Positions 17,481 through 60,541 of a stretch of DNA of 64,000 bases are shown one piece after another. Numbering within the stretch: position 1 is the stretch's first letter; each line of letters begins with the position of its first letter. This DNA is from an uncultured Planctomycetales bacterium. Lineage in GTDB: Bacteria > Omnitrophota > Gorgyraeia > Zapsychrales > JANLHA01. The notes beneath the pieces are model-generated. The model was not told where the DNA came from, searched no databases, and saw nothing but the letters and a program-made list of their open reading frames with translations. Location of the stretch: the NCBI GenBank assembly GCA_964450385.1, contig CAYVEC010000001.1:97104-161103 (forward strand). Direction: 5' to 3'. The position numbers and the translations under genes are program-made.

Positions 17481-18878
17481 ATGGCAGAGCACAAGGTAAA
17501 AGACATGTCGCAGGCTGCATTCGGTCATAAAGAGATTGAGCTCGCGGAACATGAGATGCCGGGCCTCATGGCCCTTCAGGAAAAGTATGGCAAGGCCCAG
17601 CCGCTTAAGGGTGCGCGCATCACCGGATCGCTCCATATGACGATCCAGACTGCGGTTCTGATCAAGACCCTTGTCAAGCTCGGGGCTGAGGTGCGTTGGG
17701 CGAGTTGCAATATTTTTTCGACCCAGGATCACGCTGCGGCCGCCATTGCGGACCTCGGGATCCCGGTCTTCGCCTGGAAGGGCGAGACCCTCGAGGAATA
17801 TTGGTGGTGCACGCGGCAGGCCCTGATGTTCCCTGGAGGCAAGGGTCCGACGCTGATCGTCGATGATGGCGGGGATGCGACGCTCATGGTCCATCGCGGG
17901 TGCGCGGCCGAGAAGGATCCGTCGATTTTGGACCGCCCGGCGGATACAGAGGACGAACGGCAGCTCAATATCCTGCTTAAAAAAACGCTTAAAGAACATC
18001 CTGGGGTATGGACCGGTGTTGCCCGTGAGATCCGCGGGGTCTCAGAGGAAACGACAACGGGCGTTCACCGTCTCTATCAGATGATGAAAGAGGGGTCGCT
18101 CTTGTTCCCTGCGTTCAATGTGAACGATTCGGTGACGAAATCAAAATTTGACAATCTTTACGGGTGTCGTGAATCACTCGCCGACGGGATCAAACGCGCG
18201 ACGGATGTCATGATCGCGGGCAAGGTTGTGGTGGTCTGTGGCTACGGGGACGTGGGCAAGGGGTGCGCCCACTCGATGCGGTCGTACGGCGCCCGGGTCC
18301 TTGTGACCGAGATCGATCCGATTTGCGCGCTCCAGGCCGCGATGGAGGGTTTTGAGGTGGTGACGATCGAGGATGCCCTGCCGGAGGGGAACATCTATGT
18401 AACGGCCACGGGGAACTGTCAGGTTGTCACCGCCGAGCACATGGCGCGGATGCGCGACCAGGCGATCGTCTGCAACATTGGTCACTTTGACAATGAGATC
18501 GAGGTCGGCCGGTTGGAGGCGTGGCCTGGAATCCGGAAGGAAAACGTGAAGCCTCAGGTGGACCAGTATTATTTTCCCGACGGGCATTCGATCGTGCTCC
18601 TTGCGTCGGGGCGCCTTGTGAATCTGGGCTGCGCCACAGGTCATCCGTCTTTTGTCATGAGCAATTCGTTCACAAATCAAACCCTGGCTCAGATCGAACT
18701 CTGGACTAAGGCCTATGAGATCGGGGTCTATTGCCTGCCCAAGCATCTCGACGAAGAGGTGGCACGTCTGCATCTCGCGAAGATCGGGGCGCGGCTGACC
18801 TGCTTGACGGCCAAACAGGCCGAGTATCTTGGGATCGATCCCAAGGGCCCGTATAAGCCGGATCATTATCGTTATTGA
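17481..18878 (+). CDS. ahcY: Adenosylhomocysteinase
   Basis: [32 protein letters not shown]... and the NAD-binding ...[14 protein letters not shown]... motif match AhcY. ATG at 17481 is preferred over the upstream in-frame start of the listed ORF. Confidence 0.95.
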
Positions 18879-18888
18879 TAGACGCGTT

Positions 18889-18912
18889 GGGCAGGGCTGA
18901 TTGGCCCTGCCC
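18889..18912 (+). terminator. GC-rich hairpin after ahcY (GGGCAGGGC-tgattg-GCCCTGCCC), no U-tract
   Basis: 9-bp perfect inverted repeat 11 nt after the ahcY stop. No poly-T follows, so intrinsic-terminator status is doubtful. Confidence 0.3.
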
Positions 18913-18996
18913 AGGTGTCCTGTTGCCGCACGAGGGGACGTCCGATGCGCACGTTGACCAAACGATTGATGCTCGCTCACCTCGGTCAGGTCTTTT

Positions 18997-19024
18997 TTGT
19001 TAATACTAGGGTCTCTATTAAAAT
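18997..19024 (+). promoter_or_regulatory. Sigma70-like promoter candidate (TTGTTA-16-TAAAAT) upstream of cupin gene
   Basis: Hexamers at 18997-19002 and 19019-19024 with a 16-nt spacer, about 150 nt upstream of the cupin start. Confidence 0.3.
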
Positions 19025-19174
19025 CTATCACATTGTTTTATCCATTCCTCGTGCCTTCCTTGCTGGGACTGATATTTTTGAGCAAGGCGGGAGATTTTTT
19101 ATTTTTTAAAGTGTGGCCGGAGAGGGTGGAATCGCCATGGCAGGGCTCACGATCAGCGAGAGGAACCGTGGGGA

Positions 19175-19510
19175 ATGAGAAGGCATAAGGGCGGGAATAT
19201 TTATAAGAAAGTGCCTCGACCGAAGGATGCTGAGGTCGTTGAGACCCTGATAGACAGAGGCCATTTTACGATTGAACGGATCGTGTCGCGGGGGCACACG
19301 ACGCCTGAGGGTACGTGGCTTGTTTCCCCCCATGATGAATGGGTGATGGTGGTGAAGGGAGAAGGCCGTTTGGTATTTCGTGGTGACCCGTGCCCGGTTC
19401 CATTGCGGGCCGGGGATTATGTCTTTATTTCGGCGAGGCGGCGGCATCGCGTTGAATGGACGTCCCCGCGCCGCGCCACGCTGTGGCTCGCGATTTATGT
19501 GAAACGATAA
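19175..19510 (+). CDS. Cupin-domain protein
   Basis: 111-aa small beta-barrel-type sequence (...GHTTPEGTWLVSPHDEWVMVVKGEG...GDYVFI...HRVEW...). Generic cupin; no specific function inferred. Confidence 0.55.
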   Translation: MRRHKGGNIYKKVPRPKDAEVVETLIDRGHFTIERIVSRGHTTPEGTWLVSPHDEWVMVVKGEGRLVFRGDPCPVPLRAGDYVFISARRRHRVEWTSPRRATLWLAIYVKR

Positions 19511-19544
19511 CGGTCGGTGAGCGGGTGTTGCGGAAGGAGAGCTG

Positions 19545-19982
19545 ATGGACCCCTATTTGGAGGCGGCGATTGAGGAGGCCCGGAAGGGATTGGCTGAGGG
19601 AGGGATTCCCATTGGATCCGTGATCGTGCATCAGGGCCGGATCATCGGCCGCGGGCACAACCAACGGGTCCAGGATGAGAGCCCGATCCTCCACGCCGAG
19701 ATGGCCGCGTTAGCCGATGCCGGGCGCCTGACGGCCCGGGTCTACCGTGAGTGTATTCTTTATACCACCCTGTCGCCGTGTCCGATGTGCGCGGGTGCGA
19801 TCCGGCTCTACCGGATCCCACGCGTCGTCATCGGTGAGAACACGACCTTTATGGGTGATGAAGCAGCGCTGCGTGCGGCCGGGGTCACGGTTGAGGTGTG
19901 TCAGGATCCGGCGTGTGTGACTTTGATGAGGAATTTTATTGCGGCACGGCCCGAGGTTTGGGGAGAGGATATCGGCGAATAG
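19545..19982 (+). CDS. CMP/dCMP-type (CDA-fold) nucleoside/nucleobase deaminase family protein
   Basis: The zinc-binding H-A-E (..PILHAEMAAL..) and PCxxC (..SPCPMCAGA..) motifs of the cytidine/deoxycytidylate deaminase superfamily are present. Confidence 0.75.
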   Translation: MDPYLEAAIEEARKGLAEGGIPIGSVIVHQGRIIGRGHNQRVQDESPILHAEMAALADAGRLTARVYRECILYTTLSPCPMCAGAIRLYRIPRVVIGENTTFMGDEAALRAAGVTVEVCQDPACVTLMRNFIAARPEVWGEDIGE

Positions 19983-20120
19983 CCGGGTGTACGGCGAGGG
20001 TTGTGATCCTATTCCGTGTGTTGGGTTTGTAGAATTTGAATGCGCGGACGTGATAAATAATAAGATCAGCATGGCCTCTGGATCTGCAGAGGACCGCTGG
20101 TACGAAACCGAGGAGGGGAT

Positions 20121-21089
20121 ATGGGTTCTGCGAGTGAGATCACGGTTGCTGCGTTAAACACTAATGATTTTATCCGCGCGCAGGCGGCGGAGATCGCCGC
20201 GGCCGTCGGTGACGGGGTCGCGATCAACGCGCTCTCGGGCGGGGTGGATTCGTCGGTCGTGACGTTACTCGGGCACCGAGCCCTTGGCGAGCGGCTGCGG
20301 ACCGTGTTTATCGATAACGGCCTCATGCGGGCGGGCGAGCCGGAGATGATCGTAGATATTTTTAAAAAGCTTGGGGTGCGGGTCGAGGTCTTGGACGCCC
20401 GGGAGAAATTCTTTTCCGCCCTGCGCGGGGTCACGGATCCTGAGGAAAAACGCGAGGCGATTACCCAGACGTTTTATAAGGATGTCTTTGGAAAATTAGT
20501 GCGTGAGAGCGGGGCCCGGCATCTGCTTCAGGGGACGATCCTGACGGACATCGATGAGACCGTGGCCGGGATCAAACGACAACATAATGTTTTTGCTCAG
20601 CTTGGGATCGATCCACAGGCCGCGTTTGGATATAAGATCATCGAGCCCCTGGTTCGCCTCCGTAAGGACGGGGTCCGCAAGGTCGGCGAGGCCTTGGGCC
20701 TGCCGGCGGTGATCTATCAGCGGATGCCGTTTCCCGGGCCGGCCCTGGCCGCAAGGGTCATTGGTGAGGCGACACCCGAACGGATTGAGACCGTGCGCCG
20801 GGCTACCGTCATCCTTGAGGAAGAGCTCGCCGGGAGCCGGGCCTTTCAGCACCTCGCGATCCTGCATCAGGACCGGGTGACGGGCATGCGCTCCGGCCAG
20901 CGTGATTTTGGATGTCAGATCGAGGTACGCAGCTGGGACAGCGTGGATGCCCGGACCGCCGCACCGACCGAGATCCCGCATGCGCGGCTTATCCGGCTCG
21001 CAGACCGGATCTGCGCTGAGGTCCCGGGGGTGGTGAGCGTGACTTATAATATCGCGTCCAAACCGCCGTCAACCATGGAGGCGGTGTAA
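20121..21089 (+). CDS. guaA: GMP synthase, ATP-pyrophosphatase subunit (subunit B; split archaeal-type GuaA)
   Basis: PP-loop ..ALSGGVDSSVV.. followed by a collinear ATP-PPase domain and the characteristic C-terminus ..NIASKPPSTMEAV (dimerisation domain). 322 aa with no N-terminal glutamine amidotransferase domain. Confidence 0.75.
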   Translation: MGSASEITVAALNTNDFIRAQAAEIAAAVGDGVAINALSGGVDSSVVTLLGHRALGERLRTVFIDNGLMRAGEPEMIVDIFKKLGVRVEVLDAREKFFSALRGVTDPEEKREAITQTFYKDVFGKLVRESGARHLLQGTILTDIDETVAGIKRQHNVFAQLGIDPQAAFGYKIIEPLVRLRKDGVRKVGEALGLPAVIYQRMPFPGPALAARVIGEATPERIETVRRATVILEEELAGSRAFQHLAILHQDRVTGMRSGQRDFGCQIEVRSWDSVDARTAAPTEIPHARLIRLADRICAEVPGVVSVTYNIASKPPSTMEAV

Positions 21090-21104
21090 AAAAGTGACGA
21101 GAAA

Positions 21105-21146
21105 GTGACAGGCACTTTTTTGACCGGTGCCTGTCACTTTTTTATT
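21105..21146 (+). terminator. Rho-independent terminator (11-bp stem GTGACAGGCAC/GTGCCTGTCAC + T-tract)
   Basis: Perfect 11-bp inverted repeat at 21105-21115 and 21127-21137, followed by TTTTTTATT, 16 nt after the guaA(B) stop. Confidence 0.7.
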
Positions 21147-21220
21147 GCGGCAGGGGGGGTTGTCATGTAGAATATCCCCTATGTTTGACGGCATCATGGA
21201 TATAAAAAGGGGTTCTCTGT

Positions 21221-21254
21221 AGAGACGATCGCTCGAAGATGGTCTCTTTTTTTT
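21221..21254 (+). terminator. Second terminator-like hairpin (AGAGAC...GTCTCT) followed by 8 T
   Basis: 6-bp stem with a 15-nt loop, then an 8-nt T run at 21247-21254. It lies about 90 nt upstream of the DUF1846 gene start. Confidence 0.4.
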
Positions 21255-21345
21255 GAGTGGACAACGAAACGGCTGGGGGGACGTTCGGTTGGGTGTCATC
21301 AGGGCGCGCCCACGGCCGGTTCTCCGGATGAGGAAAGGGCGCGAC

Positions 21346-22863
21346 ATGGCACGAGCAACTGGGTTTGATAATGCCGAATACCTACGGCAGCAGTCCGAGG
21401 CGATCCTCGCCCGGGTCGAGAAATTCGATAATAAACTGTATTTGGAATTCGGGGGCAAGCTCCTCTTTGATTATCACGCCGCGCGGGTCCTTCCGGGCTT
21501 TGATCCGAATGTCAAGATGCGCCTCCTCCAACAGCTTCGCGACCGAGCTGATATTATCCTCTGCATTTACGCCGGAGACATCGAGCGCCGCAAGATGCGC
21601 GCGGATTTTGGGATCACGTATGACGCCGACGCCTTAAAATTGATCGAAGAGGTCAAGGATTGGGGACTCACCATCCGGGCGGTCGTGATCACCCGTTTTG
21701 ATAACCAGCCGTCCGTCAAGATCTTCAAGAATAAGCTTGAGCGCCAGGGCATCAAGGTCTATACCCATCGTTTTACGAAAGGGTATCCGACGGATATTGA
21801 TCTGATTGTTAGCGATCAGGGCTATGGGGCCAACGAATATATCGAGACGAAAAAAGACCTCGTGATCGTGACCGGCCCGGGCCCGGGGAGCGGCAAGCTC
21901 GCCACGTGCCTGAGCCAGATGTATCATGATTATCGTCAGGGCGTTAAGTCCGGGTATGCCAAATTCGAGACGTTCCCAATCTGGAATATCCCGCTCAAGC
22001 ATCCGGTGAACGTGGCCTATGAATCCGCGACCGCGGACATTAAAGACGTCAACATGATCGATCCGTTCCATCTTGAGGCCTACAACGAACGGGCGGTGAA
22101 CTATAATCGCGATGTCGAGGTCTTTCCGGTCCTGAAGCGGATCCTCGAAAAGATCACGGGCGGGGTCTCGATGTATCAGTCGCCCACGGATATGGGGGTC
22201 AACTGCGCCGGGTTCGCGATCGTCGACGACGCGGCGGTTCAGGAGGCCGCGCGCCAGGAGGTGATCCGGAGGTATTTTCGTTATGGATGCGAGTACATCA
22301 TGGGACTCGTTGAGCGGGAGACGGTCGAGCGGGCCGAGCTGATTATGAAGGAATTAGGGGTTACCCCCGAAGACCGCCGGGTTGTTCTTCCGGCCCGTCA
22401 GGCCGCGACCGAGGCCCGTGCTGCGAATAAGGGCAACGAAGGGGTTTTCTGTGGGGCCGCGATCGAATTAGCTGACGGCACGATCATCACGGGGAAGAAT
22501 TCGCCCCTGATGCATGCGGTCTCGAGCCTTGTATTGAACGCAGCCAAGCATCTCGCCGGGATCCCGGACAAACTTCATGTCCTGTCGCCGAATATCATCA
22601 GTTCGGTCAAAGATTTTAAGGAGAAGATTTTTCAGGCGAGGACTGTGAGTCTTGACCTTGACGAGGCCCTTATCGCGCTTGCGATCAGCGCGACGAATAA
22701 CGCAACCGCTCAGGCAGTGCTTGAGCGGCTCAACGACCTTCGCGGCTGTGAGGTGCATATGACCCATATCCCTACGCCTGGGGATGAGGCGGGGTTAAAG
22801 CGATTGGGGATCAATCTCACAACGGATCTAAATTTCTCAACATTTTCCACATATGCGGCGTGA
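21346..22863 (+). CDS. UPF0371/DUF1846 family protein
   Basis: ...FDNAEYLRQQSEAILARVEKFDNKLYLEFGGKLLFDYHAARVLPGFDPN... matches the conserved N-terminus of the DUF1846 family as I recall it. ATG at 21346 is preceded by aggaaagg; the listed ORF begins at an upstream in-frame start (21253). Confidence 0.65.
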   Translation: MARATGFDNAEYLRQQSEAILARVEKFDNKLYLEFGGKLLFDYHAARVLPGFDPNVKMRLLQQLRDRADIILCIYAGDIERRKMRADFGITYDADALKLIEEVKDWGLTIRAVVITRFDNQPSVKIFKNKLERQGIKVYTHRFTKGYPTDIDLIVSDQGYGANEYIETKKDLVIVTGPGPGSGKLATCLSQMYHDYRQGVKSGYAKFETFPIWNIPLKHPVNVAYESATADIKDVNMIDPFHLEAYNERAVNYNRDVEVFPVLKRILEKITGGVSMYQSPTDMGVNCAGFAIVDDAAVQEAARQEVIRRYFRYGCEYIMGLVERETVERAELIMKELGVTPEDRRVVLPARQAATEARAANKGNEGVFCGAAIELADGTIITGKNSPLMHAVSSLVLNAAKHLAGIPDKLHVLSPNIISSVKDFKEKIFQARTVSLDLDEALIALAISATNNATAQAVLERLNDLRGCEVHMTHIPTPGDEAGLKRLGINLTTDLNFSTFSTYAA

Positions 22864-22903
22864 CGGGTGTCACGGCCGTTAACGGATCATCAGGGGGAGG
22901 GGT

Positions 22904-25900
22904 ATGCCACGACGTAACGATATCCACAAGGTGCTTATTATCGGCTCGGGTCCGATCATTATCGGCCAGGCCTGTGAGTTTGATTATTCCGGGACCCAGG
23001 CCTGCCGCGCATTAAAGGAAGAGGGTTATGAGGTCGTGCTCGTTAATTCAAATCCGGCGACGATCATGACGGACCCAGAGACGGCGGACAAGACCTATAT
23101 TGAACCCCTGACGGTCGAGAGCGTGACGGCGATCATTGAGAGAGAGCGGCCTGACGCGATCCTGCCGAATCTCGGCGGGCAGACCGCGCTGAATCTGAGC
23201 GCCTCTCTTCATGCGAGCGGGGTGTTGAAGAAATATGGGGTCGAGATGATCGGTATCCGGGCCGATGTAATCGAGCGCGGTGAGGATCGGATTGCGTTTA
23301 AGGAGGCGATGAACCGCATCGGGGTGCCGATGCCGAAATCCGAGCCGTCGCATTCAGTCGAGGAGGCCGAGGCGATCGCTGAACGGATCGGGTATCCCGT
23401 AGTGCTTCGCCCGGCATATACCATGGGCGGTACCGGCGGCGGGATCGTTTATAATGTGGAGGATCTCCGCACGGTCGTGACTCGGGGGCTTGCGGCAAGC
23501 CTGGTCCACCAGGTCCTGGTTGAAGAATCTGTCATCGGCTGGGAGGAGCTGGAACTTGAGGTCGTGCGTGATGACAAGGGCCAGCGGATCACGGTGTGTT
23601 TTATCGAGAACATCGATCCCATGGGCGTTCATACAGGGGATAGTTTTTGTGTGGCCCCGATGCTCACGGTCCCGAAACCGTTGCAGGCGCGACTTCAGGA
23701 GATCTCCTACAAGATCGCCGACGCCATCGGGATCATCGGGGGATCGAACATCCAGCTGGCCCACAATCCGAAGGACGGCCGGATCGTGGTCATCGAGATC
23801 AATCCGCGGACCTCACGGTCGTCGGCCTTGGCCTCAAAGGCCACGGGATTCCCGATCGCGCGGATCTCAACGAAACTCGCAGCCGGATTCACGCTGGATG
23901 ATTTTCCTTATTGGAAAAAGGACACCCTCGACCAATACGAGCCGAGCGGGGATTACGTGGTCTCGAAATTCGCCCGTTGGGCCTTTGAGAAATTCCCCAA
24001 GGCCAAGGATGCCCTTGGCACCCAGATGCGCGCCGTGGGTGAGGCCATGAGCATCGGTAAGACCTTTCAAGAATCGTTTCAGAAGGTGGTCCGCTCGCTT
24101 GAGATCAAGCGCTACGGTCTCGGGATGGTCAAGAAATTTCAGGCGCTCTCCGTTGATGAGCTCCGTCAGCGGCTCGCTGTGCCGTCGAGCGAACGTTATT
24201 TTCTCATGTATGAGGCCCTGCGCAAGGGGATGAGCGTTGAGGCCCTGCACGAGCTCACCTTCGTTGGCCGGTGGTTCATTGAGCAGATGCGCGAGCTCGT
24301 TGTGTTTGAGGAGACCATGCGCGCCTCCGGCTGGGCCGGGTTTAAGGATAAGGATCTGGTCCGGGCCAAGGAGATGGGGTTCTCCGACCGGTATCTGGCG
24401 CTGGTTTTTGGGATCAAGGAAAAAGAGGTAAGGGACCGGCGGCTCAAGATCGGCAAGACCGCGCGCTATGAGGCGGTCCCCGTGAGCGGGGTAAAGGACG
24501 CGGCCTATTATTATTCAACGTATCATGACATGAAAGACGAGACGCCCGTCTCGTCGTGCGAGAAGATCATGATCCTCGGCGGAGGGCCGAACCGGATCGG
24601 GCAGGGGATCGAATTCGATTATACCTGTGTCCATGCGGCCTTCGCGATCCGCGATGAGGGGTATGAGTCGATCATGGTGAATTGCAATCCCGAGACCGTC
24701 TCAACGGATTATGACACGTCGAACAAACTCTATTTTGAGCCGTTGACGGTCGAGGATGTCTTAAATATTTATCATAAGGAAAAACCCAAGGGTGTCATTG
24801 TTCAGTTCGGCGGTCAGACGCCGCTCATGATCGCGCAGGAGCTCAAGGATAATGGGGTTCCGATCCTCGGGACCACACCGGAGAATATCCATTTTGCCGA
24901 GGATCGTGAACGGTTCCGTGAAAAAATGATCGAACTCGGCATCCCGCAGCCCGAGAGTGACACGGCGCGTTCGCTTGAGGAGGCGATCGCGATCGCTCGT
25001 CGGATCGGCTATCCCCTGATGGTGCGGCCGTCCTATGTCCTCGGCGGACGGGGTATGGAAGTCATTTACGATGAGGAGGCCCTCACCCGGTACGCCCTTG
25101 AGGCGATTGATGTGAGTCCGGAGCATCCAATGCTGATCGACCGTTTTCTTGATGACGCGGTCGAGACCGAGGTTGATGCCTTATCGGACGGATGCGACGT
25201 TTTTGTCGCGTCGGTGATGGAACATATCGAGCTTGCGGGGGTGCATTCGGGGGATTCGGCCTGTTCACTGCCGAGCCGGAGTCTCTCCAAGAAACATCTG
25301 GCCACGATCGAGGACTATACCAGGAAAATTGCGAAGGCACTGAAGGTCGTGGGGCTGATGAACATTCAGTTCGCGATCTGTCAGGATACGGTGTATATTC
25401 TCGAGGCGAATCCGCGGGCCTCACGCACGGTCCCGATCGTCTCCAAGATGGCCGGGATCTCACTGGCGCGGATCGCGACCCAGGTCATGCTCGGCAAGTC
25501 CCTCAAGGATTTTCCCGAGCTTGCGGTCAAGAAGATTCCTTATGTTGGCGTCAAGGAGGCGGTCTTTCCTTTTAATATGTTTCCTGAGGTTGATCCGCTC
25601 CTAGGCCCGGAGATGCGGGCGACCGGAGAGGTGATGGGAATCGCGGATTCATTCGGGCTGGCCTTTTATAAGGCCCAGGAGGCCGCTGGATATCATCTGC
25701 CCTTGAAGGGGAATATCCTGTTAAGTGTTGCCGAGAAAGACCGAAAAAAACTCCTGCCGATCGCGCGGCGTTTTGCCGCGATCGGATTTACCATCTACGC
25801 CACGGAGGGGACCTCGCGCTTTCTGCAGGGACACGGGATCGAGAACGCCATGATTAAAAAACTCCACGAAGGCCGGCCGAATATCGCGGATGCCTTGAAG

Positions 25901-26104
25901 AACGGGGAACTGCATCTGATTGTGAATACGCCTATCGGGAAAGGCGGTCGCGACGACAGTTATATCCGCATGGCCGCGATCCAGCGGAAGATCCCCTATG
26001 TGACATCCATGGCGGCGGCTGAGGCCACGGCGGCGGGGATTGAAGAGATGATCCGGGCCACGGACCATATCCGGTCGCTTCAGGAATATCACGATCTTCT
26101 TTAG
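22904..26104 (+). CDS. carB: Carbamoyl-phosphate synthase large subunit
   Basis: 1066 aa with duplicated ATP-grasp halves (...VLIIGSGPIIIGQACEFDYSGTQA... and ...IMILGGGPNRIGQGIEFDYTCVHA...) and a C-terminal MGS-like domain. Confidence 0.95.
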   Translation: MPRRNDIHKVLIIGSGPIIIGQACEFDYSGTQACRALKEEGYEVVLVNSNPATIMTDPETADKTYIEPLTVESVTAIIERERPDAILPNLGGQTALNLSASLHASGVLKKYGVEMIGIRADVIERGEDRIAFKEAMNRIGVPMPKSEPSHSVEEAEAIAERIGYPVVLRPAYTMGGTGGGIVYNVEDLRTVVTRGLAASLVHQVLVEESVIGWEELELEVVRDDKGQRITVCFIENIDPMGVHTGDSFCVAPMLTVPKPLQARLQEISYKIADAIGIIGGSNIQLAHNPKDGRIVVIEINPRTSRSSALASKATGFPIARISTKLAAGFTLDDFPYWKKDTLDQYEPSGDYVVSKFARWAFEKFPKAKDALGTQMRAVGEAMSIGKTFQESFQKVVRSLEIKRYGLGMVKKFQALSVDELRQRLAVPSSERYFLMYEALRKGMSVEALHELTFVGRWFIEQMRELVVFEETMRASGWAGFKDKDLVRAKEMGFSDRYLALVFGIKEKEVRDRRLKIGKTARYEAVPVSGVKDAAYYYSTYHDMKDETPVSSCEKIMILGGGPNRIGQGIEFDYTCVHAAFAIRDEGYESIMVNCNPETVSTDYDTSNKLYFEPLTVEDVLNIYHKEKPKGVIVQFGGQTPLMIAQELKDNGVPILGTTPENIHFAEDRERFREKMIELGIPQPESDTARSLEEAIAIARRIGYPLMVRPSYVLGGRGMEVIYDEEALTRYALEAIDVSPEHPMLIDRFLDDAVETEVDALSDGCDVFVASVMEHIELAGVHSGDSACSLPSRSLSKKHLATIEDYTRKIAKALKVVGLMNIQFAICQDTVYILEANPRASRTVPIVSKMAGISLARIATQVMLGKSLKDFPELAVKKIPYVGVKEAVFPFNMFPEVDPLLGPEMRATGEVMGIADSFGLAFYKAQEAAGYHLPLKGNILLSVAEKDRKKLLPIARRFAAIGFTIYATEGTSRFLQGHGIENAMIKKLHEGRPNIADALKNGELHLIVNTPIGKGGRDDSYIRMAAIQRKIPYVTSMAAAEATAAGIEEMIRATDHIRSLQEYHDLL

Positions 26105-26151
26105 AGGCGGGGTGACGCGGATTAACGCTTTAGAACAAAAGGACACAATGT

Positions 26152-27573
26152 ATGAGCGGAGTCGTTGGGGTTGTCTCGTCGGAACAGTGCGCGCGTACCT
26201 TGTTCTATGGGATCGATTATCATTCGCATCTGGGGACCCAGTTCGGCGGCATGGCCGTGCTCGGGACGGAGTTCAGGCGGCAGATCCACAACATCACCCG
26301 GACCCAGTTTAAGTCGAAATTCTATGATGATTATCACCATATGCAGGGTCACGCCGGGATCGGGGTCATCAGCGATCATGATGAGCAGCCGATGTACCTT
26401 GATTCGCGCTTTGGGCCGTTCTGTATCGTGACGACGGGGTTGATCACGAATAAGGCCGCCTTAAAAGAGAGGCTTTTTGAACGCGGGATCTCGTTCAGCG
26501 AGGTGAGCCGTGATCAGGTCAACGCCACGGAACTCGTCGCCAAGCTCATTAGTCTTGGAGACAATTTGATCGACGGCATCGAGCGGATGTTCGACCTGAT
26601 CGAGGGGTCGTGTTCACTTCTGCTCTTGACACGCGAAGGGATCTATGCCGCGCGGGACCGGCGGGGGTATACCCCTCTTGTCATCGGGAAAAACGGCGCG
26701 GATTGGATGGTTGTTTCTGAGAGCTGCGCTCTGCCGAATCTCGGGTTCTCTATTTTTTCGTATCTGAAACCCGGAGAGATCGTGCGGATCAATGAGCAGG
26801 GCCTTCACACGGAGCGGCCTGGGCGGCCTGTTAATCAGGTCTGCGCCTTTCTCTGGATCTATACGGGTTTCCCGGCGTCGCACTATCAGGGGATCAATGT
26901 GGAGACGGCGCGCGAGCGCTGTGGCGCGGCCCTGGCCCGTCATGACCATGATATTAAGGCGGATTTTGTCTGCGGGATCCCGGACTCCGGGATTGCCCAC
27001 GCGATCGGATATGCCATGGAATCGCGGAAGCCCTATCGTCGGCCTTTTGTGAAATACACCCCCGGATATGGACGAAGCTATACCCCGCCCGAACAGGTGA
27101 CCCGGGATTTTATCGCTACGATGAAGCTCATTCCGATCGCGGATATCATTAAGGGTGCCCGGATCGTGGTCTGCGAGGATTCGATCGTGCGCGGGACCCA
27201 GTTGAAGAATTTAGCCGTGACCAAATTGTGGAATGCCGGCGCAAAGGAAGTCCACGCGCGCGCGGCGTGTCCGCCGCTCATGTTCCCGTGCCGATACTGT
27301 TTGTCCACGCGTACGACGCGAGAACTCGCCGCCCGGCGGGCGATCAAGGCCATCGAGGGGCATGATCCGGAGGATGTCTCGGCCTATCTTGATCCGTCAA
27401 CGAAAGAATATCAGCGGATGGTTGAATGGATCGCCAAAGACCTCGGGGTCACGACCCTGCGGTATCAGACGATGGACGAGATGATCCAGGCCATCGGCCT
27501 GCCGCGCGATCAGATGTGTCTTTACTGCTGGACCGGCCAGTGCCCGGGGAAATCGGGCGAGAGCCGATCGTGA
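26152..27573 (+). CDS. Amidophosphoribosyltransferase (PurF)-like protein with degenerate glutaminase active site
   Basis: Collinear with PurF. The N-terminal Ntn domain reads MSGVVGVV... where PurF has MCGIVGI, and HRGQD and HNGN are replaced by HLGTQ and TTGL. The C-terminal type-I PRTase domain has an intact PRPP motif ..VVCEDSIVRGTQ.. and a Cys cluster (ACPPLMFPCRYC). Confidence 0.75.
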   Translation: MSGVVGVVSSEQCARTLFYGIDYHSHLGTQFGGMAVLGTEFRRQIHNITRTQFKSKFYDDYHHMQGHAGIGVISDHDEQPMYLDSRFGPFCIVTTGLITNKAALKERLFERGISFSEVSRDQVNATELVAKLISLGDNLIDGIERMFDLIEGSCSLLLLTREGIYAARDRRGYTPLVIGKNGADWMVVSESCALPNLGFSIFSYLKPGEIVRINEQGLHTERPGRPVNQVCAFLWIYTGFPASHYQGINVETARERCGAALARHDHDIKADFVCGIPDSGIAHAIGYAMESRKPYRRPFVKYTPGYGRSYTPPEQVTRDFIATMKLIPIADIIKGARIVVCEDSIVRGTQLKNLAVTKLWNAGAKEVHARAACPPLMFPCRYCLSTRTTRELAARRAIKAIEGHDPEDVSAYLDPSTKEYQRMVEWIAKDLGVTTLRYQTMDEMIQAIGLPRDQMCLYCWTGQCPGKSGESRS

Positions 27574-28319
27574 TTCCCCTCAGGCCGTCACGAGACCCTG
27601 TCGGTGCCGGTGAGATCTCGGCCCGGTGGGGGTTCCCGCTGCGGCCACCGCAGCCTGATGACGCCTTTGTCCTCGATATCATCGATGATCGTTTGACGCT
27701 TTTGATGACAGGTGATGCGAAGTTTGGCGGTCTTACGGTTGATTTTGTGACCGGTGCGGCGCTCTTCCGCCGACGCTGGGCGCAGGGCCGTGAGGCCGTC
27801 GCCCATGCCGTTGGACTTAAGAAAGGGTTCCGCCCGACTGTGGTTGATGCGACCGCGGGGCTCGGCCGTGACGCCTTTGTTCTGGCGTCCTTGGGGTGCC
27901 GGGTCCATATGATCGAGCGCTCGCCCGTCGTTGCCGCCCTTCTTGATGATGGTCTCCGCCGGGCCGGCCAAGACCCCGAGATCGGGGGCTGGGTCAGGGA
28001 GCGGCTCTCGCTCATCCATGTCGATAGTCTTCAAGGATTGGGGGGGCTTTTATTTCAGCCGGACGTCGTTTATTTAGATCCCATGTTTCCAGAGCGGCGG
28101 AAAACGGCCCTTGTTAAAAAAGAGATGCGGCTTTTGCAGACCCTCCTGGGAGATGACGGTGATTCTGATGCCCTGCTGCTTCTGGCCCTTAAAATAGCAG
28201 GCCGCCGGGTGGTGGTCAAACGTCCGCGATCCGCGGGGCCTTTAGGCGGCCGGGTTCCGGAGGCGGCGCTCACGACTGGTCGGCATCGGTTTGATCTATA
28301 TCGCCCTTTTGTTGCCTGA
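27570..28319 (+). CDS. rsmJ: 16S rRNA (guanine1516-N2)-methyltransferase RsmJ
   Basis: Near-identical motifs to E. coli RsmJ: ...VVDATAGLGRDAFVLASLGCRV.MIER.PVVAALLDDGL..., ...VVYLDPMFP...KTALVKKEMR... and ...VVVKRP.... The GTG start at 27570 overlaps the PurF-like stop (gTGA). Confidence 0.85.
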   Translation: MIPLRPSRDPVGAGEISARWGFPLRPPQPDDAFVLDIIDDRLTLLMTGDAKFGGLTVDFVTGAALFRRRWAQGREAVAHAVGLKKGFRPTVVDATAGLGRDAFVLASLGCRVHMIERSPVVAALLDDGLRRAGQDPEIGGWVRERLSLIHVDSLQGLGGLLFQPDVVYLDPMFPERRKTALVKKEMRLLQTLLGDDGDSDALLLLALKIAGRRVVVKRPRSAGPLGGRVPEAALTTGRHRFDLYRPFVA

Positions 28320-28351
28320 ATCTGCGATTTTTCCGTCCAAAAAATTTTTAA

Positions 28352-28379
28352 TTTACATATTATTGTTCTATGCTAGAAT
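28352..28379 (+). promoter_or_regulatory. Sigma70-like promoter candidate (TTTACA-16-TAGAAT) upstream of ilvC
   Basis: Hexamers at 28352-28357 and 28374-28379 in a 130-bp AT-rich spacer, followed by the palindromes AAACGCGTTT (28410-28419) and AAACGTTT. Confidence 0.35.
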
Positions 28380-28451
28380 ACATTTCAAATTTGTGGCAAA
28401 AAACAAATAAAACGCGTTTAAATTCAAACGTTTTTAAAGGAAGGAAGGACA

Positions 28452-29444
28452 ATGGCTAAAATTTATTATGATGGGGATGCGGACCTGTCCGTGCTTAAAA
28501 ACAGGGTGATCGGGGTGATCGGCTATGGGATTCAGGGCCGCGCCCAGGCGTTGAATCTGCGCGACTCGGGGCTTCAGGTCCTCGTGAGCGAGGTCAAGGG
28601 CACACCGAATTATGATCAGGCCGTCACCGATGGGTTTAAGCCGGTTGAGGCGAAAGTGGTCGCGAAAAAGGCGGATATCATTCAGATCCTCACCCAGGAT
28701 CATGTTCAGGCCGCACTTTATCGCAAGGCGATCCGTCGGTACCTCAAGGCTGGGAAATCACTCGTTTTTTCGCATGGGTTTAATATCCATTTTGAGCAGA
28801 TCGTGCCGCCGAAGGATGTCGATGTCTGGATGATCGCGCCCAAAAGCCCGGGTGCCCTGGTTCGACGTCAGTATGAGGAAGGCCGTGGGGTGCCGTGCCT
28901 GGTCGCTGTCTTTCAGGACGCCTCAGGAAAGGCGTTGAAGGATGCCTTGGCGTATGCCAAGGGGATCGGCGGGACACGCGCCGGGGTTATCGAGACGACC
29001 TTTAAGGAAGAGACCGAAACCGATCTCTTCGGCGAGCAGGCCGTGCTCTGCGGCGGGGCGAGTGAGCTGGTCAAGGCGGGTTTTGAGACCCTGGTCGATG
29101 CTGGGTATCAGCCCGAGATCGCGTATTTTGAATGCCTTCATGAGCTTAAGCTCATTGTTGACCTTTTTTATGAGGTTGGGATCCAGGGGATGCGCAAACG
29201 CGTGTCGGATACGGCTGAATACGGCGATTATTCCCGTGGCAAGCGGATCATTACTGACCGGACCCGTAAGGAGATGAAGAAGATTCTTGCTGAGGTTCAG
29301 TCGGGCAAGTTTGCCCGCGAGTGGATCCGCGAGAATAAGCGTGGACGTAAGAATTTTAACGCGATGCGTGCCGAGGGCGAGAATCATCCGATCGAGAAGA
29401 TCGGGGCTAAGCTGCGCGGCATGATGTCGTGGATGAAGAAATAA
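28452..29444 (+). CDS. ilvC: Ketol-acid reductoisomerase
   Basis: [40 protein letters not shown]... is the canonical class I KARI N-terminus; 330 aa. Confidence 0.95.
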
Positions 29445-37601: not shown

Positions 37602-38864
37602 GTGGTTGTTCTCTATGATCTGATCTTTGTGGTTTTTGCTATTCTCTACGTTCCGTACCTTGTGATCCGCCGGAAATGGCATCCCCAGTTCAGGATGCGT
37701 CTCGGCCGGATCCCGCGATATCTGGTGCAGCGTTTCCGTGACCAGCCGCAGATTTGGGTTCATGCTGTCTCGGTCGGAGAGGTTATGACGGTCGTGGGGT
37801 TGGTCCAGGCGCTCAAGCGCCGGTATCCCCATCACGGGATCGTGCTCTCGACGGTGACAACGACCGGTTATGAGGTGGCCCGGGCCCAGCTTGCGCCTGA
37901 GGACGCGGTGATCTTTGCCCCGCTCGATTTTAGCCCGATCGTCCGGCACCTCGTCAGGGTGATCCGTCCTGTTCTCTATGTGACCGCGGAGACCGAGATC
38001 TGGCCCAATATTTTTTACGCCCTTCATCGGCGTTTTGTGCCGATCGTCATGGTCAACGGCCGCTTGTCGGATAAGGGGTTTCGCCGGTATCATTTAGGGC
38101 GGTGGTTTATTTATCGGGTGCTTCAGTATGTCCGCTTTTTCTGTATGCAGTCCGAACTTGATGCCGAGCGTGTGACCGCTCTTGGCGCCTCGCCCGCCAA
38201 GGTGGCGGTGACCGGGAATATGAAGTTCGACCAGGCTGGGCATGGCGCGGCGCATAAGGTCGACGCGGTCGTTGGGTCATGGACCGGTCCCGTCTGGATC
38301 GCGGGGAGTACGCATCCGGGCGAGGAGGCGATCGTCCTGCATGTCTTTAAACAGCTCCGGCTGGAATTCCCGCTGTTGAAGCTGATCGTGGTCCCCCGGC
38401 ATGTTGAACGGGTCGATGAGGTCGCGGCGATCATTCGTCAGGAGGGGCTGGAGTGTCAGCGGTATACGGAATTGGAAAATGGGGGCGCCTTGACTGGAAG
38501 GATCCTGCTCGTGGACGTGATCGGGCGTCTCAAAGGGCTTTACGCGGTGGCGAGCGTGGTGTTTGTTGGTAAGAGCCTGTGCGGCCGAGGCGGTCAGAAT
38601 ATGATCGAGCCGGCCTTCTTTGGGAAACCCGTCATCGTCGGGCCTCAGACCCAGAATTTTAAAAGCATTATCGAATTGCTTATCCGCCGTCAGGCCGTGT
38701 CGGTTGTTCGGAATCCCCAGGAACTCAGAGACGTCCTTAAAGATCTACTGCGAGACCCTGTCAAGGCTGGGGCCATGGGTGCGCGGGCGCGCGAGGTGGT
38801 CATGGACCAGCAGGGCGCGACCGTGAGGACCCTCGAGATCATCACAAATATCCTTCCAGAATAA
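37602..38864 (+). CDS. waaA: 3-deoxy-D-manno-octulosonic acid (Kdo) transferase
   Basis: The membrane-proximal N-terminus, GT-B KdtA pattern and length (420 aa) fit WaaA/KdtA. lpxK follows directly, as in many genomes. Confidence 0.9.
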   Translation: MVVLYDLIFVVFAILYVPYLVIRRKWHPQFRMRLGRIPRYLVQRFRDQPQIWVHAVSVGEVMTVVGLVQALKRRYPHHGIVLSTVTTTGYEVARAQLAPEDAVIFAPLDFSPIVRHLVRVIRPVLYVTAETEIWPNIFYALHRRFVPIVMVNGRLSDKGFRRYHLGRWFIYRVLQYVRFFCMQSELDAERVTALGASPAKVAVTGNMKFDQAGHGAAHKVDAVVGSWTGPVWIAGSTHPGEEAIVLHVFKQLRLEFPLLKLIVVPRHVERVDEVAAIIRQEGLECQRYTELENGGALTGRILLVDVIGRLKGLYAVASVVFVGKSLCGRGGQNMIEPAFFGKPVIVGPQTQNFKSIIELLIRRQAVSVVRNPQELRDVLKDLLRDPVKAGAMGARAREVVMDQQGATVRTLEIITNILPE

Positions 38865-38945
38865 TAGATAATAAAAATATCAGTACTAGAAATTTAAAGC
38901 CTTTACGGTAAAATAATAGGCAAACTTTATCTTAAAGGGGTATGG

Positions 38946-41943: not shown

Positions 41944-41949
41944 TTATTT

Positions 41950-44064: not shown

Positions 44065-44068
44065 TTCG

Positions 44069-48249: not shown

Positions 48250-48296
48250 TAGAATCAGTCCCTCTTTTCTTATTAGTAATATAAAAGGAGTGGCCG

Positions 48297-50888: not shown

Positions 50889-50892
50889 GACG

Positions 50893-52367: not shown

Positions 52368-52386
52368 GCGGATAGGGGAGGCAGAG

Positions 52387-58494: not shown

Positions 58495-60541
<2,047 letters not shown>

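What the first reader, a model, noticed from the sequence alone, without database searches (positions are those of the whole stretch)
26152..27573. PurF paralog with the catalytic Cys1 replaced by Ser and other glutaminase residues substituted
The ORF is collinear with glutamine PRPP amidotransferase, and its PRTase domain looks intact (..VVCEDSIVRGTQ.., a Cys cluster compatible with Fe-S ligation). However, the N-terminal Ntn nucleophile position reads M-S-G-VVGVV where PurF has M-C-G-IVGI, and HRGQD and HNGN become HLGTQ and TTGL. A TGT (Cys) codon sits immediately 5' of the ATG, but no in-frame start precedes it (CAA, ACA, AGG, AAA and AAC codons, then a TAG stop). Either this is a glutamine-independent or ammonia-dependent PurF-like enzyme, a catalytically altered paralog with a different role (it sits between carB and rsmJ, not in a pur operon), or there is a local sequence error.
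Basis: partly seen in the sequence, partly recalled or inferred. Interest (0 to 1): 0.55.

Follow-up and report, generated by a model that had tools for sequence, protein, structure and literature searches.

The report
Cysteine-less PurF paralog, probably ammonia-dependent
This gene belongs to a large, uncharacterised family of PurF look-alikes that keep the purine-starting sugar-phosphate chemistry but have lost every glutamine-splitting residue. It sits with two other glutamine-free nucleotide enzymes, so it probably starts purine synthesis directly from ammonia.

Summary
ORF 26152-27573 (+) encodes a 473-aa protein collinear with PurF. It starts M-S-G, and no upstream in-frame start could supply the TGT codon.

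It is not a sequence error. All 120 closest homologues lack Cys (119 start MSG, one VSG). In 151 more diverse members the residue after Met is Gly 84, Ser 56, Thr 5, Ala 2, other 4, never Cys. The Gln-site residues R26 and N101 are replaced family-wide, and R73 and D127 are replaced in the window protein. The PRPP loop, the flexible loop and the four [4Fe-4S] cysteines stay near-invariant.

The family spans more than 20 bacterial and archaeal phyla, mostly anaerobes. It scores below NCBI's purF cut-off (217.6 against 350).

Context links it to nucleotide synthesis:
- It lies inside pur operons, beside a canonical Cys-PurF or in its slot.
- It is tightly linked to a distinct carB subfamily with no carA beside it.
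- In this window and its relatives it follows pyrJ (DUF1846), reported in 2024 as an ammonia-only CTP synthase.
- One Desulfobacterales-like contig carries both carA-carB-purF and glnE-PurF-like-carB2.

Best reading (about 0.55): a glutamine-independent, ammonia-using phosphoribosylamine synthase. The strongly conserved remodelled N-domain is unexplained. No biochemical data exist.

The parts
26152..27573 (+). PurF-like ORF (473 aa), a Cys-less paralog of glutamine PRPP amidotransferase
   Evidence: TIGR01134 purF scores 217.6 bits, below the cut-off of 350. The AF2 model has pLDDT 87 and TM 0.79-0.82 to 1AO0.
26152..26826 (+). N-terminal Ntn-fold (class II GATase-like) domain, aa 1-225, without glutaminase residues
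   Evidence: Pfam GATase_7 covers aa 73-194. Per-column comparison with 23 canonical PurFs shows C1 replaced by S/G, R26 by L and N101 by V/N/S/A. The alignment to 1AO0 shows D127 replaced by A and R73 by I.
26152..26160 (+). Met-Ser-Gly start, where PurF has (Met/propeptide)-Cys-Gly
26215..26238 (+). Family signature D-Y-H-S-H-L-G-T (aa 22-29), replacing PurF's x-x-L-Q-H-R-G-Q loop of the glutamine site
   Evidence: In 94 diverse members D22 is conserved at 96%, Y23 at 100%, H24 at 89%, H26 at 100% and L27 at 87%.
26827..27546 (+). Type I phosphoribosyltransferase domain (aa 226-465), conserved as in PurF
   Evidence: Of 30 columns that are at least 90% conserved in canonical PurF, 28 are shared.
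27052..27126 (+). Flexible catalytic loop K301...R308-S309...Q315..R318...K325
   Evidence: K301, R308 and K325 are 100% conserved. The AF2 pLDDT is below 50 at residues 304-309, as expected for a mobile loop.
27163..27201 (+). PRPP-binding loop I-V-V-C-E-D-S-I-V-R-G-T-Q (aa 338-350)
   Evidence: D343, S344 and R347 are invariant.
26842..26844 (+). Cys231, predicted [4Fe-4S] ligand (B. subtilis C236)
27289..27291 (+). Cys380, predicted [4Fe-4S] ligand (B. subtilis C382)
27517..27528 (+). Cys456-x-x-Cys459, predicted [4Fe-4S] ligands (B. subtilis C437 and C440)
22904..26104 (+). carB of the PurF-like-linked subfamily ('CarB2'), 47 bases upstream, with no carA in the window
21346..22863 (+). pyrJ (DUF1846/UPF0371), first gene of the likely operon pyrJ-carB-PurF-like-rsmJ. 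The ORF finder starts it at TTG 21253.
27570..28319 (+). rsmJ-like methyltransferase. Its start overlaps the PurF-like stop codon, which suggests co-transcription.

Best explanation
The ORF encodes an intact member of an ancient, widespread, Cys-less paralog family of PurF. Its phosphoribosyltransferase half still binds PRPP, closes its flexible loop and holds a [4Fe-4S] cluster. Its N-terminal Ntn-fold domain can no longer hydrolyse glutamine. The most likely reaction is PRPP + NH3 -> 5-phosphoribosylamine + PPi. This is the ammonia-dependent half-reaction that E. coli PurF C1S and C1A mutants retain. The protein would then be a glutamine-independent isozyme of PurF. In this genome it appears to be co-transcribed as pyrJ-carB-PurF-like-rsmJ. 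That groups it with an ammonia-only CTP synthase and a carbamoyl-phosphate synthetase large subunit that has no glutaminase subunit beside it. The module would feed free ammonia into nucleotide synthesis and spare the ATP that glutamine synthetase would spend. Shown here: the sequence features, the fold, the family-wide pattern and the genomic linkage. Inferred: the reaction, the nitrogen donor and the physiological rationale.
For: (1) The PRTase machinery is conserved. Of 30 columns at least 90% conserved in canonical PurF, 28 are shared, including the PRPP loop, the flexible-loop K/R/Q/R/K residues and all four Fe-S cysteines. (2) The glutaminase residues are lost family-wide. The residue after Met is G84, S56, T5, A2 and other 4 in 151 diverse members, never Cys. 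R26, N101 and the His of the GHVRY motif are replaced family-wide, and R73 and D127 are replaced in the window protein. (3) The full PurF fold is kept, with AF2 pLDDT 87 and TM about 0.8 to 1AO0 and 1ECB. (4) The gene sits in purine operons. In Dysosmobacter the order is purE-PurFlike-purC-purF-purM-purN-...-purD-purL. In Planctomycetota and Omnitrophota the orders are purF-purM-PurFlike and purL-purQ-purF-PurFlike (L003, L008-L010). In Omnitrophota L017 and L018 it occupies the purF slot with no canonical purF in view. (5) It is tightly linked (4-48 bp, both gene orders) to carB in the window and in 9 of 80 GTDB loci from three phyla, with no adjacent carA. Those carBs are 64-87% identical to each other but only 53-54% identical to the carA-linked carB1 of L088. 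(6) The L088 contig carries carA-carB1-purF(Cys) and also glnE-PurFlike-carB2. (7) pyrJ (DUF1846) lies immediately upstream of the PurF-like gene or of carB in the window, L001, L081/L082 and L083, immediately downstream in L005, and on the opposite strand just downstream in L002. Purified PyrJ uses ammonia but not glutamine (bioRxiv 10.1101/2024.09.24.614635). (8) E. coli PurF with Cys1 changed to Ala or Ser loses the glutamine reaction but keeps the ammonia reaction (Mei and Zalkin 1989, as cited in PMC3261824).
Against: No member has been assayed, and the literature searches found no characterisation. The N-domain is not a decaying relic. It is about as conserved as the PRTase half (pairwise identity 0.46 against 0.52; 36 columns at least 90% conserved). 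It also has its own signature residues C13, D22, Y23, H24, H46, F53 and N124. Simple use of bulk ammonia does not explain that conservation. Co-expression with a canonical PurF from the same operon would also fit a partner or regulatory role. I could not test whether this genome has a canonical purF, because none lies in the 64 kb window. Whether CarB2 really works without CarA is unknown.
Confidence: 0.55

Rival explanations
1. The remodelled N-domain has gained a new function. It might capture or deprotonate NH4+, release ammonia from a donor other than glutamine by a non-Ntn mechanism, possibly metal-assisted, or bind a different nucleophile. The protein would then be a PRPP-dependent transferase with new donor chemistry rather than a crippled PurF.
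For: The N-domain is under purifying selection as strong as the glutaminase domain of real PurF. Family-specific conserved polar residues cluster in sequence around the former glutamine site: C13, D22, Y23, H24, the shared H26, and H46. The flexible loop that seals the inter-domain channel is even better conserved than in PurF. This suggests that something still travels from the N-domain to PRPP. The persistent pairing with a special carB subfamily could reflect shared chemistry.
Against: No candidate donor is indicated by the context beyond ammonia-handling genes (glnE, glnA, GAF-ANTAR). The simplest reading of the PyrJ and carA-less carB neighbours is free ammonia.
Confidence: 0.22
2. The protein is a non-catalytic or regulatory partner of canonical PurF (hetero-oligomer, feedback sensor or PRA-handling scaffold). 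It would be a pseudo-enzyme retained for PRPP or nucleotide binding.
For: It is encoded in the same operon as a canonical Cys-PurF in Dysosmobacter and in L003 and L008-L010. In L042 the two genes are convergent neighbours. PurF enzymes are homo-oligomers, so paralogs could co-assemble (own knowledge). Catalytically dead amidotransferase homologues that act with a cellular amidotransferase are known in viruses (abstract of PMC7605207).
Against: Residues needed only for catalysis and loop closure stay invariant across bacteria and archaea. In most loci no canonical purF is nearby. In L017 and L018 the gene fills the purF position of an otherwise complete-looking pur cluster. In the window and in Desulfobacterales it travels with carB, not with purF.
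Confidence: 0.15
3. Ser2 replaces Cys1 as the N-terminal nucleophile, as in Ser-type Ntn hydrolases, and the enzyme is still a glutamine amidotransferase.
For: Ser and Thr are nucleophiles in other Ntn hydrolases (own knowledge). All 119 close relatives have Ser. The residue after Met is always small, so Met excision would expose it.
Against: Gly is the commonest residue at this position in the diverse family (G84, S56, T5, A2). The glutamine-binding and oxyanion residues R26, R73, N101 and D127 are all replaced. The E. coli PurF C1S mutant has no glutamine-dependent activity (PMC3261824).
Confidence: 0.03
4. A local sequencing or assembly error, or a mis-called start, hides a normal Cys1.
For: A TGT codon lies directly 5' of the ATG.
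Against: No start codon lies between the upstream TAG and the ATG. A ribosome-binding site is correctly spaced for the ATG. All 120 independent homologues from many assemblies lack Cys, and 119 of them start MSG. The other glutaminase residues are also replaced. An identical protein is on record elsewhere (P0001).
Confidence: 0.01

Closest known systems
Glutamine PRPP amidotransferase PurF, [4Fe-4S] type (B. subtilis, PDB 1AO0 and 1GPH; NCBIfam TIGR01134)
   Same: The two-domain architecture is collinear (Ntn-fold N-domain plus type I PRTase). Sequence identity is 30% and TM is about 0.8. The PRPP loop, the flexible loop and the four cluster cysteines are conserved. The gene is found in pur operons.
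   Different: There is no Cys1 and no propeptide. R26, R73, N101 and D127 are replaced. The protein has its own conserved N-domain signature (DYHSHLGT, H46, F53, N124). It scores 217.6 bits against the 350-bit cut-off. It usually co-exists with a true PurF rather than replacing it.
E. coli PurF Cys1 to Ser/Ala mutants (Mei and Zalkin 1989, cited in PMC3261824)
   Same: The loss of the nucleophile matches. The mutants keep NH3-dependent PRA synthesis while losing the glutamine reaction. This is the activity proposed here.
   Different: Those are laboratory point mutants with an otherwise intact glutamine site. This is a natural family in which the whole site has been remodelled and kept under selection.
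PyrJ / DUF1846 (Spd_0310), ammonium-dependent CTP synthase (bioRxiv 10.1101/2024.09.24.614635)
   Same: It is a glutamine-independent counterpart of a nucleotide-pathway amidotransferase that co-exists with the glutamine enzyme (PyrG). A pyrJ ortholog sits in the same gene cluster as the PurF-like gene here and in relatives.
   Different: PyrJ has an unrelated fold and is not a derivative of PyrG. The PurF-like protein is a direct paralog of PurF.
Carbamoyl-phosphate synthetase I of ureotelic vertebrates (own knowledge)
   Same: It is an amidotransferase whose glutaminase domain lost its catalytic Cys (replaced by Ser). The domain is retained, and the enzyme uses free ammonia.
   Different: It has a class I (triad) glutaminase domain, is eukaryotic and mitochondrial, and needs N-acetylglutamate.
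Beta-lactam synthetase and carbapenam synthetase (AsnB homologues; PDB 1M1Z)
   Same: They are class II (Ntn) amidotransferase descendants that lost Cys1 and glutaminase activity but kept the N-domain fold. They appear among the fold matches.
   Different: Their synthetase domain is unrelated (ATP pyrophosphatase) and they changed their reaction. They are secondary-metabolism enzymes with a narrow distribution.
Mlab_0150 of Methanocorpusculum labreanum (Brown et al. 2011, PMC3261824)
   Same: [quoted passage not shown] The authors doubted that it is a glutamine amidotransferase.
   Different: It was described as a recent duplicate of the species' own purF. I could not obtain the sequence, so I did not test whether it belongs to the family described here.

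Membership tests
PurF, glutamine PRPP amidotransferase (EC 2.4.2.14; TIGR01134 equivalog) | N-terminal Cys nucleophile, exposed by removal of Met or a propeptide | tested here: not met
   The protein starts M-S-G. No upstream start can reach the TGT codon. None of 270 family members has Cys at this position.
PurF, glutamine PRPP amidotransferase (EC 2.4.2.14; TIGR01134 equivalog) | Glutamine-site and oxyanion residues R26, G27, R73, N101, G102 and D127 (E. coli numbering) | tested here: not met
   R26 is L, R73 is I, N101 is T (V/N/S/A across the family) and D127 is A. Only the two glycines remain.
PurF, glutamine PRPP amidotransferase (EC 2.4.2.14; TIGR01134 equivalog) | Score at or above the curated family cut-off | tested here: not met
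   The score is 217.6 bits against a cut-off of 350.
PurF, glutamine PRPP amidotransferase (EC 2.4.2.14; TIGR01134 equivalog) | Type I PRTase PRPP-binding loop and flexible catalytic loop | tested here: met
   The EDSIVRGTQ loop and K301, R308, S309, Q315, R318 and K325 are invariant or nearly so.
PurF, glutamine PRPP amidotransferase (EC 2.4.2.14; TIGR01134 equivalog) | Four Cys ligands of the [4Fe-4S] cluster (B. subtilis-type subfamily) | tested here: met
   C231, C380, C456 and C459 align to C236, C382, C437 and C440 and are 98-99% conserved.
PurF, glutamine PRPP amidotransferase (EC 2.4.2.14; TIGR01134 equivalog) | Two-domain PurF fold | tested here: met
   The AF2 model has pLDDT 87.1. 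Foldseek gives E 7e-39 and TM 0.79/0.82 to 1AO0. All top 17 hits are PurF structures.
PurF, glutamine PRPP amidotransferase (EC 2.4.2.14; TIGR01134 equivalog) | Catalyses formation of 5-phosphoribosylamine from PRPP | not testable with these tools
   Only genomic context is available: pur-operon membership.
Cys-less PurF-like family (unnamed; annotated 'amidophosphoribosyltransferase' in public records) | Start M-[S/G/T/A]-G-x-x-G plus the signature [D]-Y-H-S-H-L-G-T, H46, F53 and N124 | tested here: met
   The window protein has MSGVVG, DYHSHLGT at residues 22-29, H46, F53 and N124.
Cys-less PurF-like family (unnamed; annotated 'amidophosphoribosyltransferase' in public records) | Closer to family members from other phyla and from archaea than to canonical PurF | tested here: met
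   Identity is 48-68% to GTDB members from many phyla, including archaea. It is 29-31% to canonical PurFs that sit next to family members.
Ammonia-dependent nucleotide-synthesis module (PyrJ + carA-less CarB + PurF-like): a proposal, not an established system | Physical linkage of the three genes | tested here: met
   The window has pyrJ-carB-PurFlike in one direction with 40-bp and 47-bp gaps. All three genes are also adjacent in L001 and L081/L082. pyrJ and the PurF-like gene are adjacent without carB in L083.
Ammonia-dependent nucleotide-synthesis module (PyrJ + carA-less CarB + PurF-like): a proposal, not an established system | Each enzyme uses NH3 and not glutamine | not testable with these tools
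   This has been shown only for S. pneumoniae PyrJ. It is untested for CarB2 and for the PurF-like protein.

The most novel reading that the evidence does not exclude
PyrJ, a carA-less CarB subfamily and the Cys-less PurF-like protein form a co-inherited, glutamine-independent nucleotide-biosynthesis module. The module would let energy-limited anaerobes put free ammonia directly into CTP, carbamoyl phosphate and phosphoribosylamine. The PurF-like N-domain would not be a relic but a newly evolved ammonia-capture or alternative-donor site (C13/D22/H24/H26/H46) feeding the old inter-domain channel.
Probability: 0.25. Interest if true: 0.8.

Novelty: new variant of a known kind. Interest (0 to 1): 0.62.

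Why it matters
PurF is taught as the obligatory glutamine-dependent entry to purine synthesis. A very large paralog family, present in gut Oscillospiraceae and Bacteroidales, sulfate reducers, Omnitrophota, Planctomycetota and several archaeal phyla, is annotated simply as 'amidophosphoribosyltransferase' although it cannot use glutamine. If it is an ammonia-dependent isozyme, three things follow. Metabolic reconstructions and essentiality predictions for purF in these organisms are wrong. Redundancy could mask phenotypes, as PyrG and PyrJ did. Nitrogen budgeting of nucleotide synthesis in anaerobes would need revising. Together with the 2024 PyrJ finding, it suggests a general, testable pattern of parallel glutamine-free versions of nucleotide amidotransferases. 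If the conserved N-domain proves to have new chemistry, it would be a new evolutionary outcome for the Ntn amidotransferase fold.

Tried and rejected
- **Sequence error or mis-called start.** Rejected from the upstream codons and the 120 of 120 homologues without Cys.
- **Ser as replacement nucleophile.** Rejected because Gly is the commoner residue in diverse members.
- **Canonical purF or other de novo pur genes in the window.** A tblastn search with canonical PurF, PurM, PurL, PurB, PurQ, PurD and PurE found none. Only purA turned up.
- **Locating the source contig.** An exact protein look-up returned 'not on record'. Its nearest relatives are Omnitrophota and Planctomycetota MAGs.
- **thiC linkage.** This lead came from the C. 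ragsdalei thiC-purF operon (PMC6505512). No ThiC motif occurs in the 80 loci, and I did not determine whether that purF is of the Cys-less type.
- **Literature searches.** Searches for 'PurF-like', ammonia-dependent PurF, DVU0161/DVU0162 and pseudoenzyme terms found no characterisation. The Fibro-purF riboswitch paper and the Akkermansia purF paper were read and are not about this family.
- **Rfam scan of 18000-29000.** It gave only spurious miRNA-model hits on a terminator hairpin.
- **'Twin-His' ammonium-channel analogy.** I considered this for H24 and H26 and set it aside, because H26 is also invariant in canonical PurF.
Full report
**Observation**

The ORF at 26152-27573 (+) is real and intact. 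Its product begins MSGVVGVV. The six codons 5' of the ATG are AAC AAA AGG ACA CAA TGT, preceded by TAG. An AAAGGA ribosome-binding site is correctly spaced for the ATG.

Pfam recognises only the class II amidotransferase domain GATase_7. NCBIfam's purF equivalog model matches end to end, but at 217.6 bits against a cut-off of 350.

The best solved relative is the [4Fe-4S] PurF of B. subtilis (1AO0/1GPH, E about 2e-56, 30% identity). In that alignment:
- HLGTQ replaces HRGQE.
- TTGL replaces HNGN.
- NATE replaces SDTE.
- The PRPP loop (VVCEDSIVRGTQ against VMVDDSIVRGTT) is kept.
- The four cluster cysteines (C231, C380, C456, C459) are kept.

An AlphaFold2 model (pLDDT 87.1, pTM 0.86) superposes on PurF structures over its whole length (TM 0.79-0.82). 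All 17 best PDB matches are PurF.

**Not an error, but a family**

All 120 closest database homologues (66-82% identical; Omnitrophota, Planctomycetota and unnamed MAGs) lack Cys. Of these, 119 begin MSG and one begins VSG. All carry FYGxDYHSHLGT.

A search of 1.84 billion 50%-identity representatives shows a large, diverse family. Its members start MSG, MGG, MTG or MAG. In 151 diverse members the residue after Met is Gly 84, Ser 56, Thr 5, Ala 2 and other 4, never Cys. Ser is therefore not a substitute nucleophile. The position merely stays small, which is compatible with Met excision.

A scan of GTDB species genomes finds the family in more than 20 phyla, mostly anaerobes:
- Omnitrophota, several Planctomycetota orders, Elusimicrobiota and Desulfobacterota/Syntrophia.
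- Bacteroidales, Clostridia, Spirochaetes and Lentisphaerae/Kiritimatiellae/Verrucomicrobiota.
- Gemmatimonadota, Acidobacteriota, Aminicenantes and Anaerolineae.
- The archaeal groups Altiarchaeota, Methanobacteriota, Thermoplasmatota and Asgard.

One gut Oscillospiraceae cluster alone holds 3295 sequences.

**What is kept and what is lost**

I aligned 94 diverse family members with 23 canonical PurFs.
- In the PRTase half, 28 of the 30 columns that are at least 90% conserved in true PurF are shared. These include D343-S344-x-V-R347-G-T, the flexible-loop residues K301, R308, S309, Q315, R318 and K325, and all four Fe-S cysteines.
- In the N-domain the structural glycines, H26, the Q79-P80 pair and N100 are shared.
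- Every residue specific to glutamine hydrolysis is replaced. C1 becomes S or G. R26 becomes L or M. The His of the GHVRY motif becomes V. In the pairwise alignment to 1AO0, R73 becomes I and D127 becomes A. N101 becomes V, N, S or A.

The N-domain is nevertheless not decaying. Its pairwise identity within the family is 0.46, against 0.52 for the PRTase half. It has 36 columns at least 90% conserved, as many as the working glutaminase domain of canonical PurF, which has 37. It also carries family-specific conserved residues: C13, D22, Y23, H24, S25, L27, H46, F53, I73, N124 and N196. This is the main unexplained point.

**Genomic context in the window**

All the following genes are on the + strand.
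- A cupin lies at 19175 and a CDA-type deaminase at 19545.
- A GMP-synthase ATP-pyrophosphatase/dimerisation unit without its GATase domain lies at 20121-21089. A strong terminator hairpin follows it at 21103-21145.
- A roughly 200-nt leader comes next.
- pyrJ (DUF1846) follows. The ORF finder starts it at 21253, but ATG 21346 with a GAGGAAAGGG site is more likely. It ends at 22863.
- Then come carB (22904-26104), the PurF-like gene (26152-27573) and rsmJ, whose start overlaps the PurF-like stop codon.

These calls rest. No carA, pyrG or other class I GATase motif occurs anywhere in the 64 kb.

DUF1846 matches the S. pneumoniae Spd_0310-type structure 7F00 at E 8e-160. A 2024 preprint renamed Spd_0310 as PyrJ. 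It showed that PyrJ is synthetically lethal with pyrG. It also showed that the purified protein converts UTP to CTP with ammonia but not with glutamine (bioRxiv 10.1101/2024.09.24.614635).

**Genomic context elsewhere**

I clustered ORFs from the 80 GTDB loci.
- carB lies directly beside the PurF-like gene in 9 loci from Omnitrophota, Lentisphaerae and Desulfobacterota. The gaps are 4-48 bp in eight of them, and both gene orders occur. No carA is adjacent.
- A canonical purF, with propeptide, CG[LIV]FG and LQHRGQES, lies next to it in 5 loci. In L003, L008 and L010 the order is purF-purM-PurFlike. In L009 it is purL-purQ-purF-PurFlike. In L042 the two genes are convergent.
- In Omnitrophota L017 and L018 the gene occupies the purF slot of a cluster with purB, purL, purQ, purM, purD and purE.
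- In all, 20 of 80 loci show a nucleotide-biosynthesis neighbour, although many contigs are short.
- Among 44 likely operon partners, the commonest Pfam families are CarB (5), PurM (4) and DUF1846 (2).

Pfam-annotated contigs add further cases.
- DUF1846-carB-PurFlike occurs in the nearest relative of the window protein (L081/L082).
- DUF1846-PurFlike occurs in an Omnitrophota genome, near glnA and a GAF-ANTAR regulator (L083).
- GAF-ANTAR, a Glu_synthase FMN-domain-only gene and PurFlike occur together in L085.
- In Dysosmobacter a complete pur operon reads purE-PurFlike-purC-purF(Cys)-purM-purN-IMP cyclohydrolase-AICARFT-purD-purL.

**The most telling locus**

L088 is a Desulfobacterales-like contig. 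One strand carries carA-carB1-purF, with a canonical Cys and HRGQ, GHVRY and HNGN motifs. The other strand carries glnE-PurFlike-carB2, with no carA.

The carB genes linked to PurF-like, including the window's, are 64-87% identical to one another across phyla. They are only 53-54% identical to carB1 of that same contig. They therefore form a distinct subfamily that travels with the PurF-like gene. L078 shows the same carA motif at its edge.

**Interpretation**

The chemistry-bearing half of PurF is intact and the gene belongs to purine and nucleotide operons. The protein therefore most likely still makes phosphoribosylamine from PRPP. Because the glutaminase site is gone, the nitrogen must come from elsewhere.

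Free ammonia is the simplest donor, for four reasons:
- E. coli PurF C1S and C1A mutants keep exactly this activity (Mei and Zalkin, via PMC3261824).
- Its recurrent neighbours are an ammonia-only CTP synthase and a CPS large subunit without a glutaminase subunit.
- Nitrogen-status genes (glnE, glnA, GAF-ANTAR) recur nearby.
- The carriers are largely energy-limited anaerobes, for which bypassing glutamine synthetase saves ATP. This last point is inference.

Vertebrate CPS I offers a precedent. Its dead glutaminase domain carries a Cys-to-Ser change and the enzyme uses ammonia (own knowledge). I give this explanation about 0.55.

**Rivals**

- **New N-domain function (about 0.22).** The conserved, remodelled N-domain and the very conserved flexible loop suggest that something is still delivered through the inter-domain channel. 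That could be a new ammonia-capturing or alternative-donor site.
- **Partner or regulator of canonical PurF (about 0.15).** Co-expression with canonical purF from one operon fits this reading. Against it stand the invariant catalytic residues and the many loci without a purF nearby.
- **Ser-nucleophile glutaminase (0.03) and sequencing error (0.01).** Both are effectively excluded.

**Novelty**

Public records call these proteins 'amidophosphoribosyltransferase'. No Pfam or NCBIfam model separates them. I found no paper characterising them. The nearest mention is a single Ser-for-Cys purF duplicate in Methanocorpusculum noted in 2011. The linkage to PyrJ and to a carA-less carB subfamily appears to be undescribed.

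I rate the finding a new variant of a known kind, with moderate-to-high interest. It makes a concrete biochemical hypothesis directly testable and affects purine-pathway annotation in many anaerobes, including abundant gut taxa.

**Limits**

- There is no biochemical evidence.
- Whether this genome has a canonical purF or carA is unknown.
- Co-occurrence rests on neighbouring genes only.
- Spatial clustering of the family-specific residues was not testable.
- My ORF calls in GC-rich loci sometimes picked antisense frames (cluster 2), so the neighbour counts are lower bounds.

Noticed in passing
window 21253-22863 (likelier start ATG 21346): This is a DUF1846/UPF0371 gene. It matches PDB 7F00 at E 8e-160 and NCBIfam PRK13663 at 765 bits, above the cut-off of 631. 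The family was reported in a 2024 preprint as PyrJ, an ammonia-only CTP synthase. It heads the likely operon pyrJ-carB-PurFlike-rsmJ. It also lies beside PurF-like genes in Omnitrophota and Planctomycetota relatives (L001, L002, L005, L081-L083).
   Followed up: yes
window 22904-26104; loci L001, L041, L047, L057, L059, L071, L076, L078, L081, L088: The window's carB has no carA in 64 kb. It belongs to a carB subfamily that is 64-87% identical across phyla. That subfamily is only 53-54% identical to the carA-linked carB1 of the L088 contig, which also carries a carB2. The subfamily is consistently adjacent to the PurF-like gene. It may be an ammonia-dependent or differently partnered CPS large subunit.
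   Followed up: partly
window 20121-21089: This GMP synthase homologue consists only of the ATP-pyrophosphatase and dimerisation parts (322 aa). TIGR00884 scores 296 bits, below the cut-off of 338.75. It has no GATase domain and no GATase gene nearby. It could be a two-subunit or ammonia-using GMP synthase.
   Followed up: partly
window 21103-21145 and 21146-21345: A strong, symmetric terminator hairpin with T-runs follows the guaA-like gene. It gave spurious miRNA-model hits in Rfam. A roughly 200-nt leader then precedes pyrJ. The leader contains a run of seven G and a second hairpin followed by T8 (about 21221-21252). It may be a transcription attenuator. The fold z-score is -3.4.
   Followed up: partly
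L088 1-14621 (JGI 3300083231 Ga0675942_0002611): One contig carries a glutamine-type set, carA-carB1-purF(Cys), and on the other strand glnE-PurFlike-carB2. This is a natural side-by-side of the two versions. L078 shows the same carA motif at its left edge.
   Followed up: yes
L089/L090 8741-21422 (Dysosmobacter sp. contigs): A complete purine operon contains both the Cys-less PurF-like gene (between purE and purC) and a canonical purF with a propeptide (after purC).
   Followed up: yes
L085 6834-11404: A GAF-ANTAR regulator and a 550-aa Glu_synthase FMN-domain-only protein precede a PurF-like gene. The glutamate synthase core has no amidotransferase domain. This is another synthase half without its glutaminase.
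   Followed up: no
protein ids P0209, P0217, P0218, P0232, P0239, P0244, P0253, P0262: A second, more distant group of Cys-less PurF relatives starts MAG[LI]xGLS and carries FYQQHLGE instead of DYHSHLGT. Loss of Cys1 in PurF paralogs seems to have happened more than once, or the family is broader than described here.
   Followed up: no
window 19175-19982: A small cupin (111 aa) and a cytidine/deoxycytidylate-deaminase-type zinc enzyme (145 aa, with HAE...PCxxC motifs) lie upstream of the guaA-like gene. This adds one more nucleotide-metabolism gene to the neighbourhood.
   Followed up: no
window 844-4707: A 1287-aa ORF has no NCBIfam match at E 1e-20.
   Followed up: no
window 37602-53226 and 59213-60541: There is an ordinary LPS core and Kdo cluster: kdtA, lpxK, a lipid A acyltransferase fusion, several heptosyltransferases, kdsB, kdsA, a KpsF-like gene and lptC/lptA. 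purA is also present. The organism is therefore diderm and converts IMP to AMP.
   Followed up: partly
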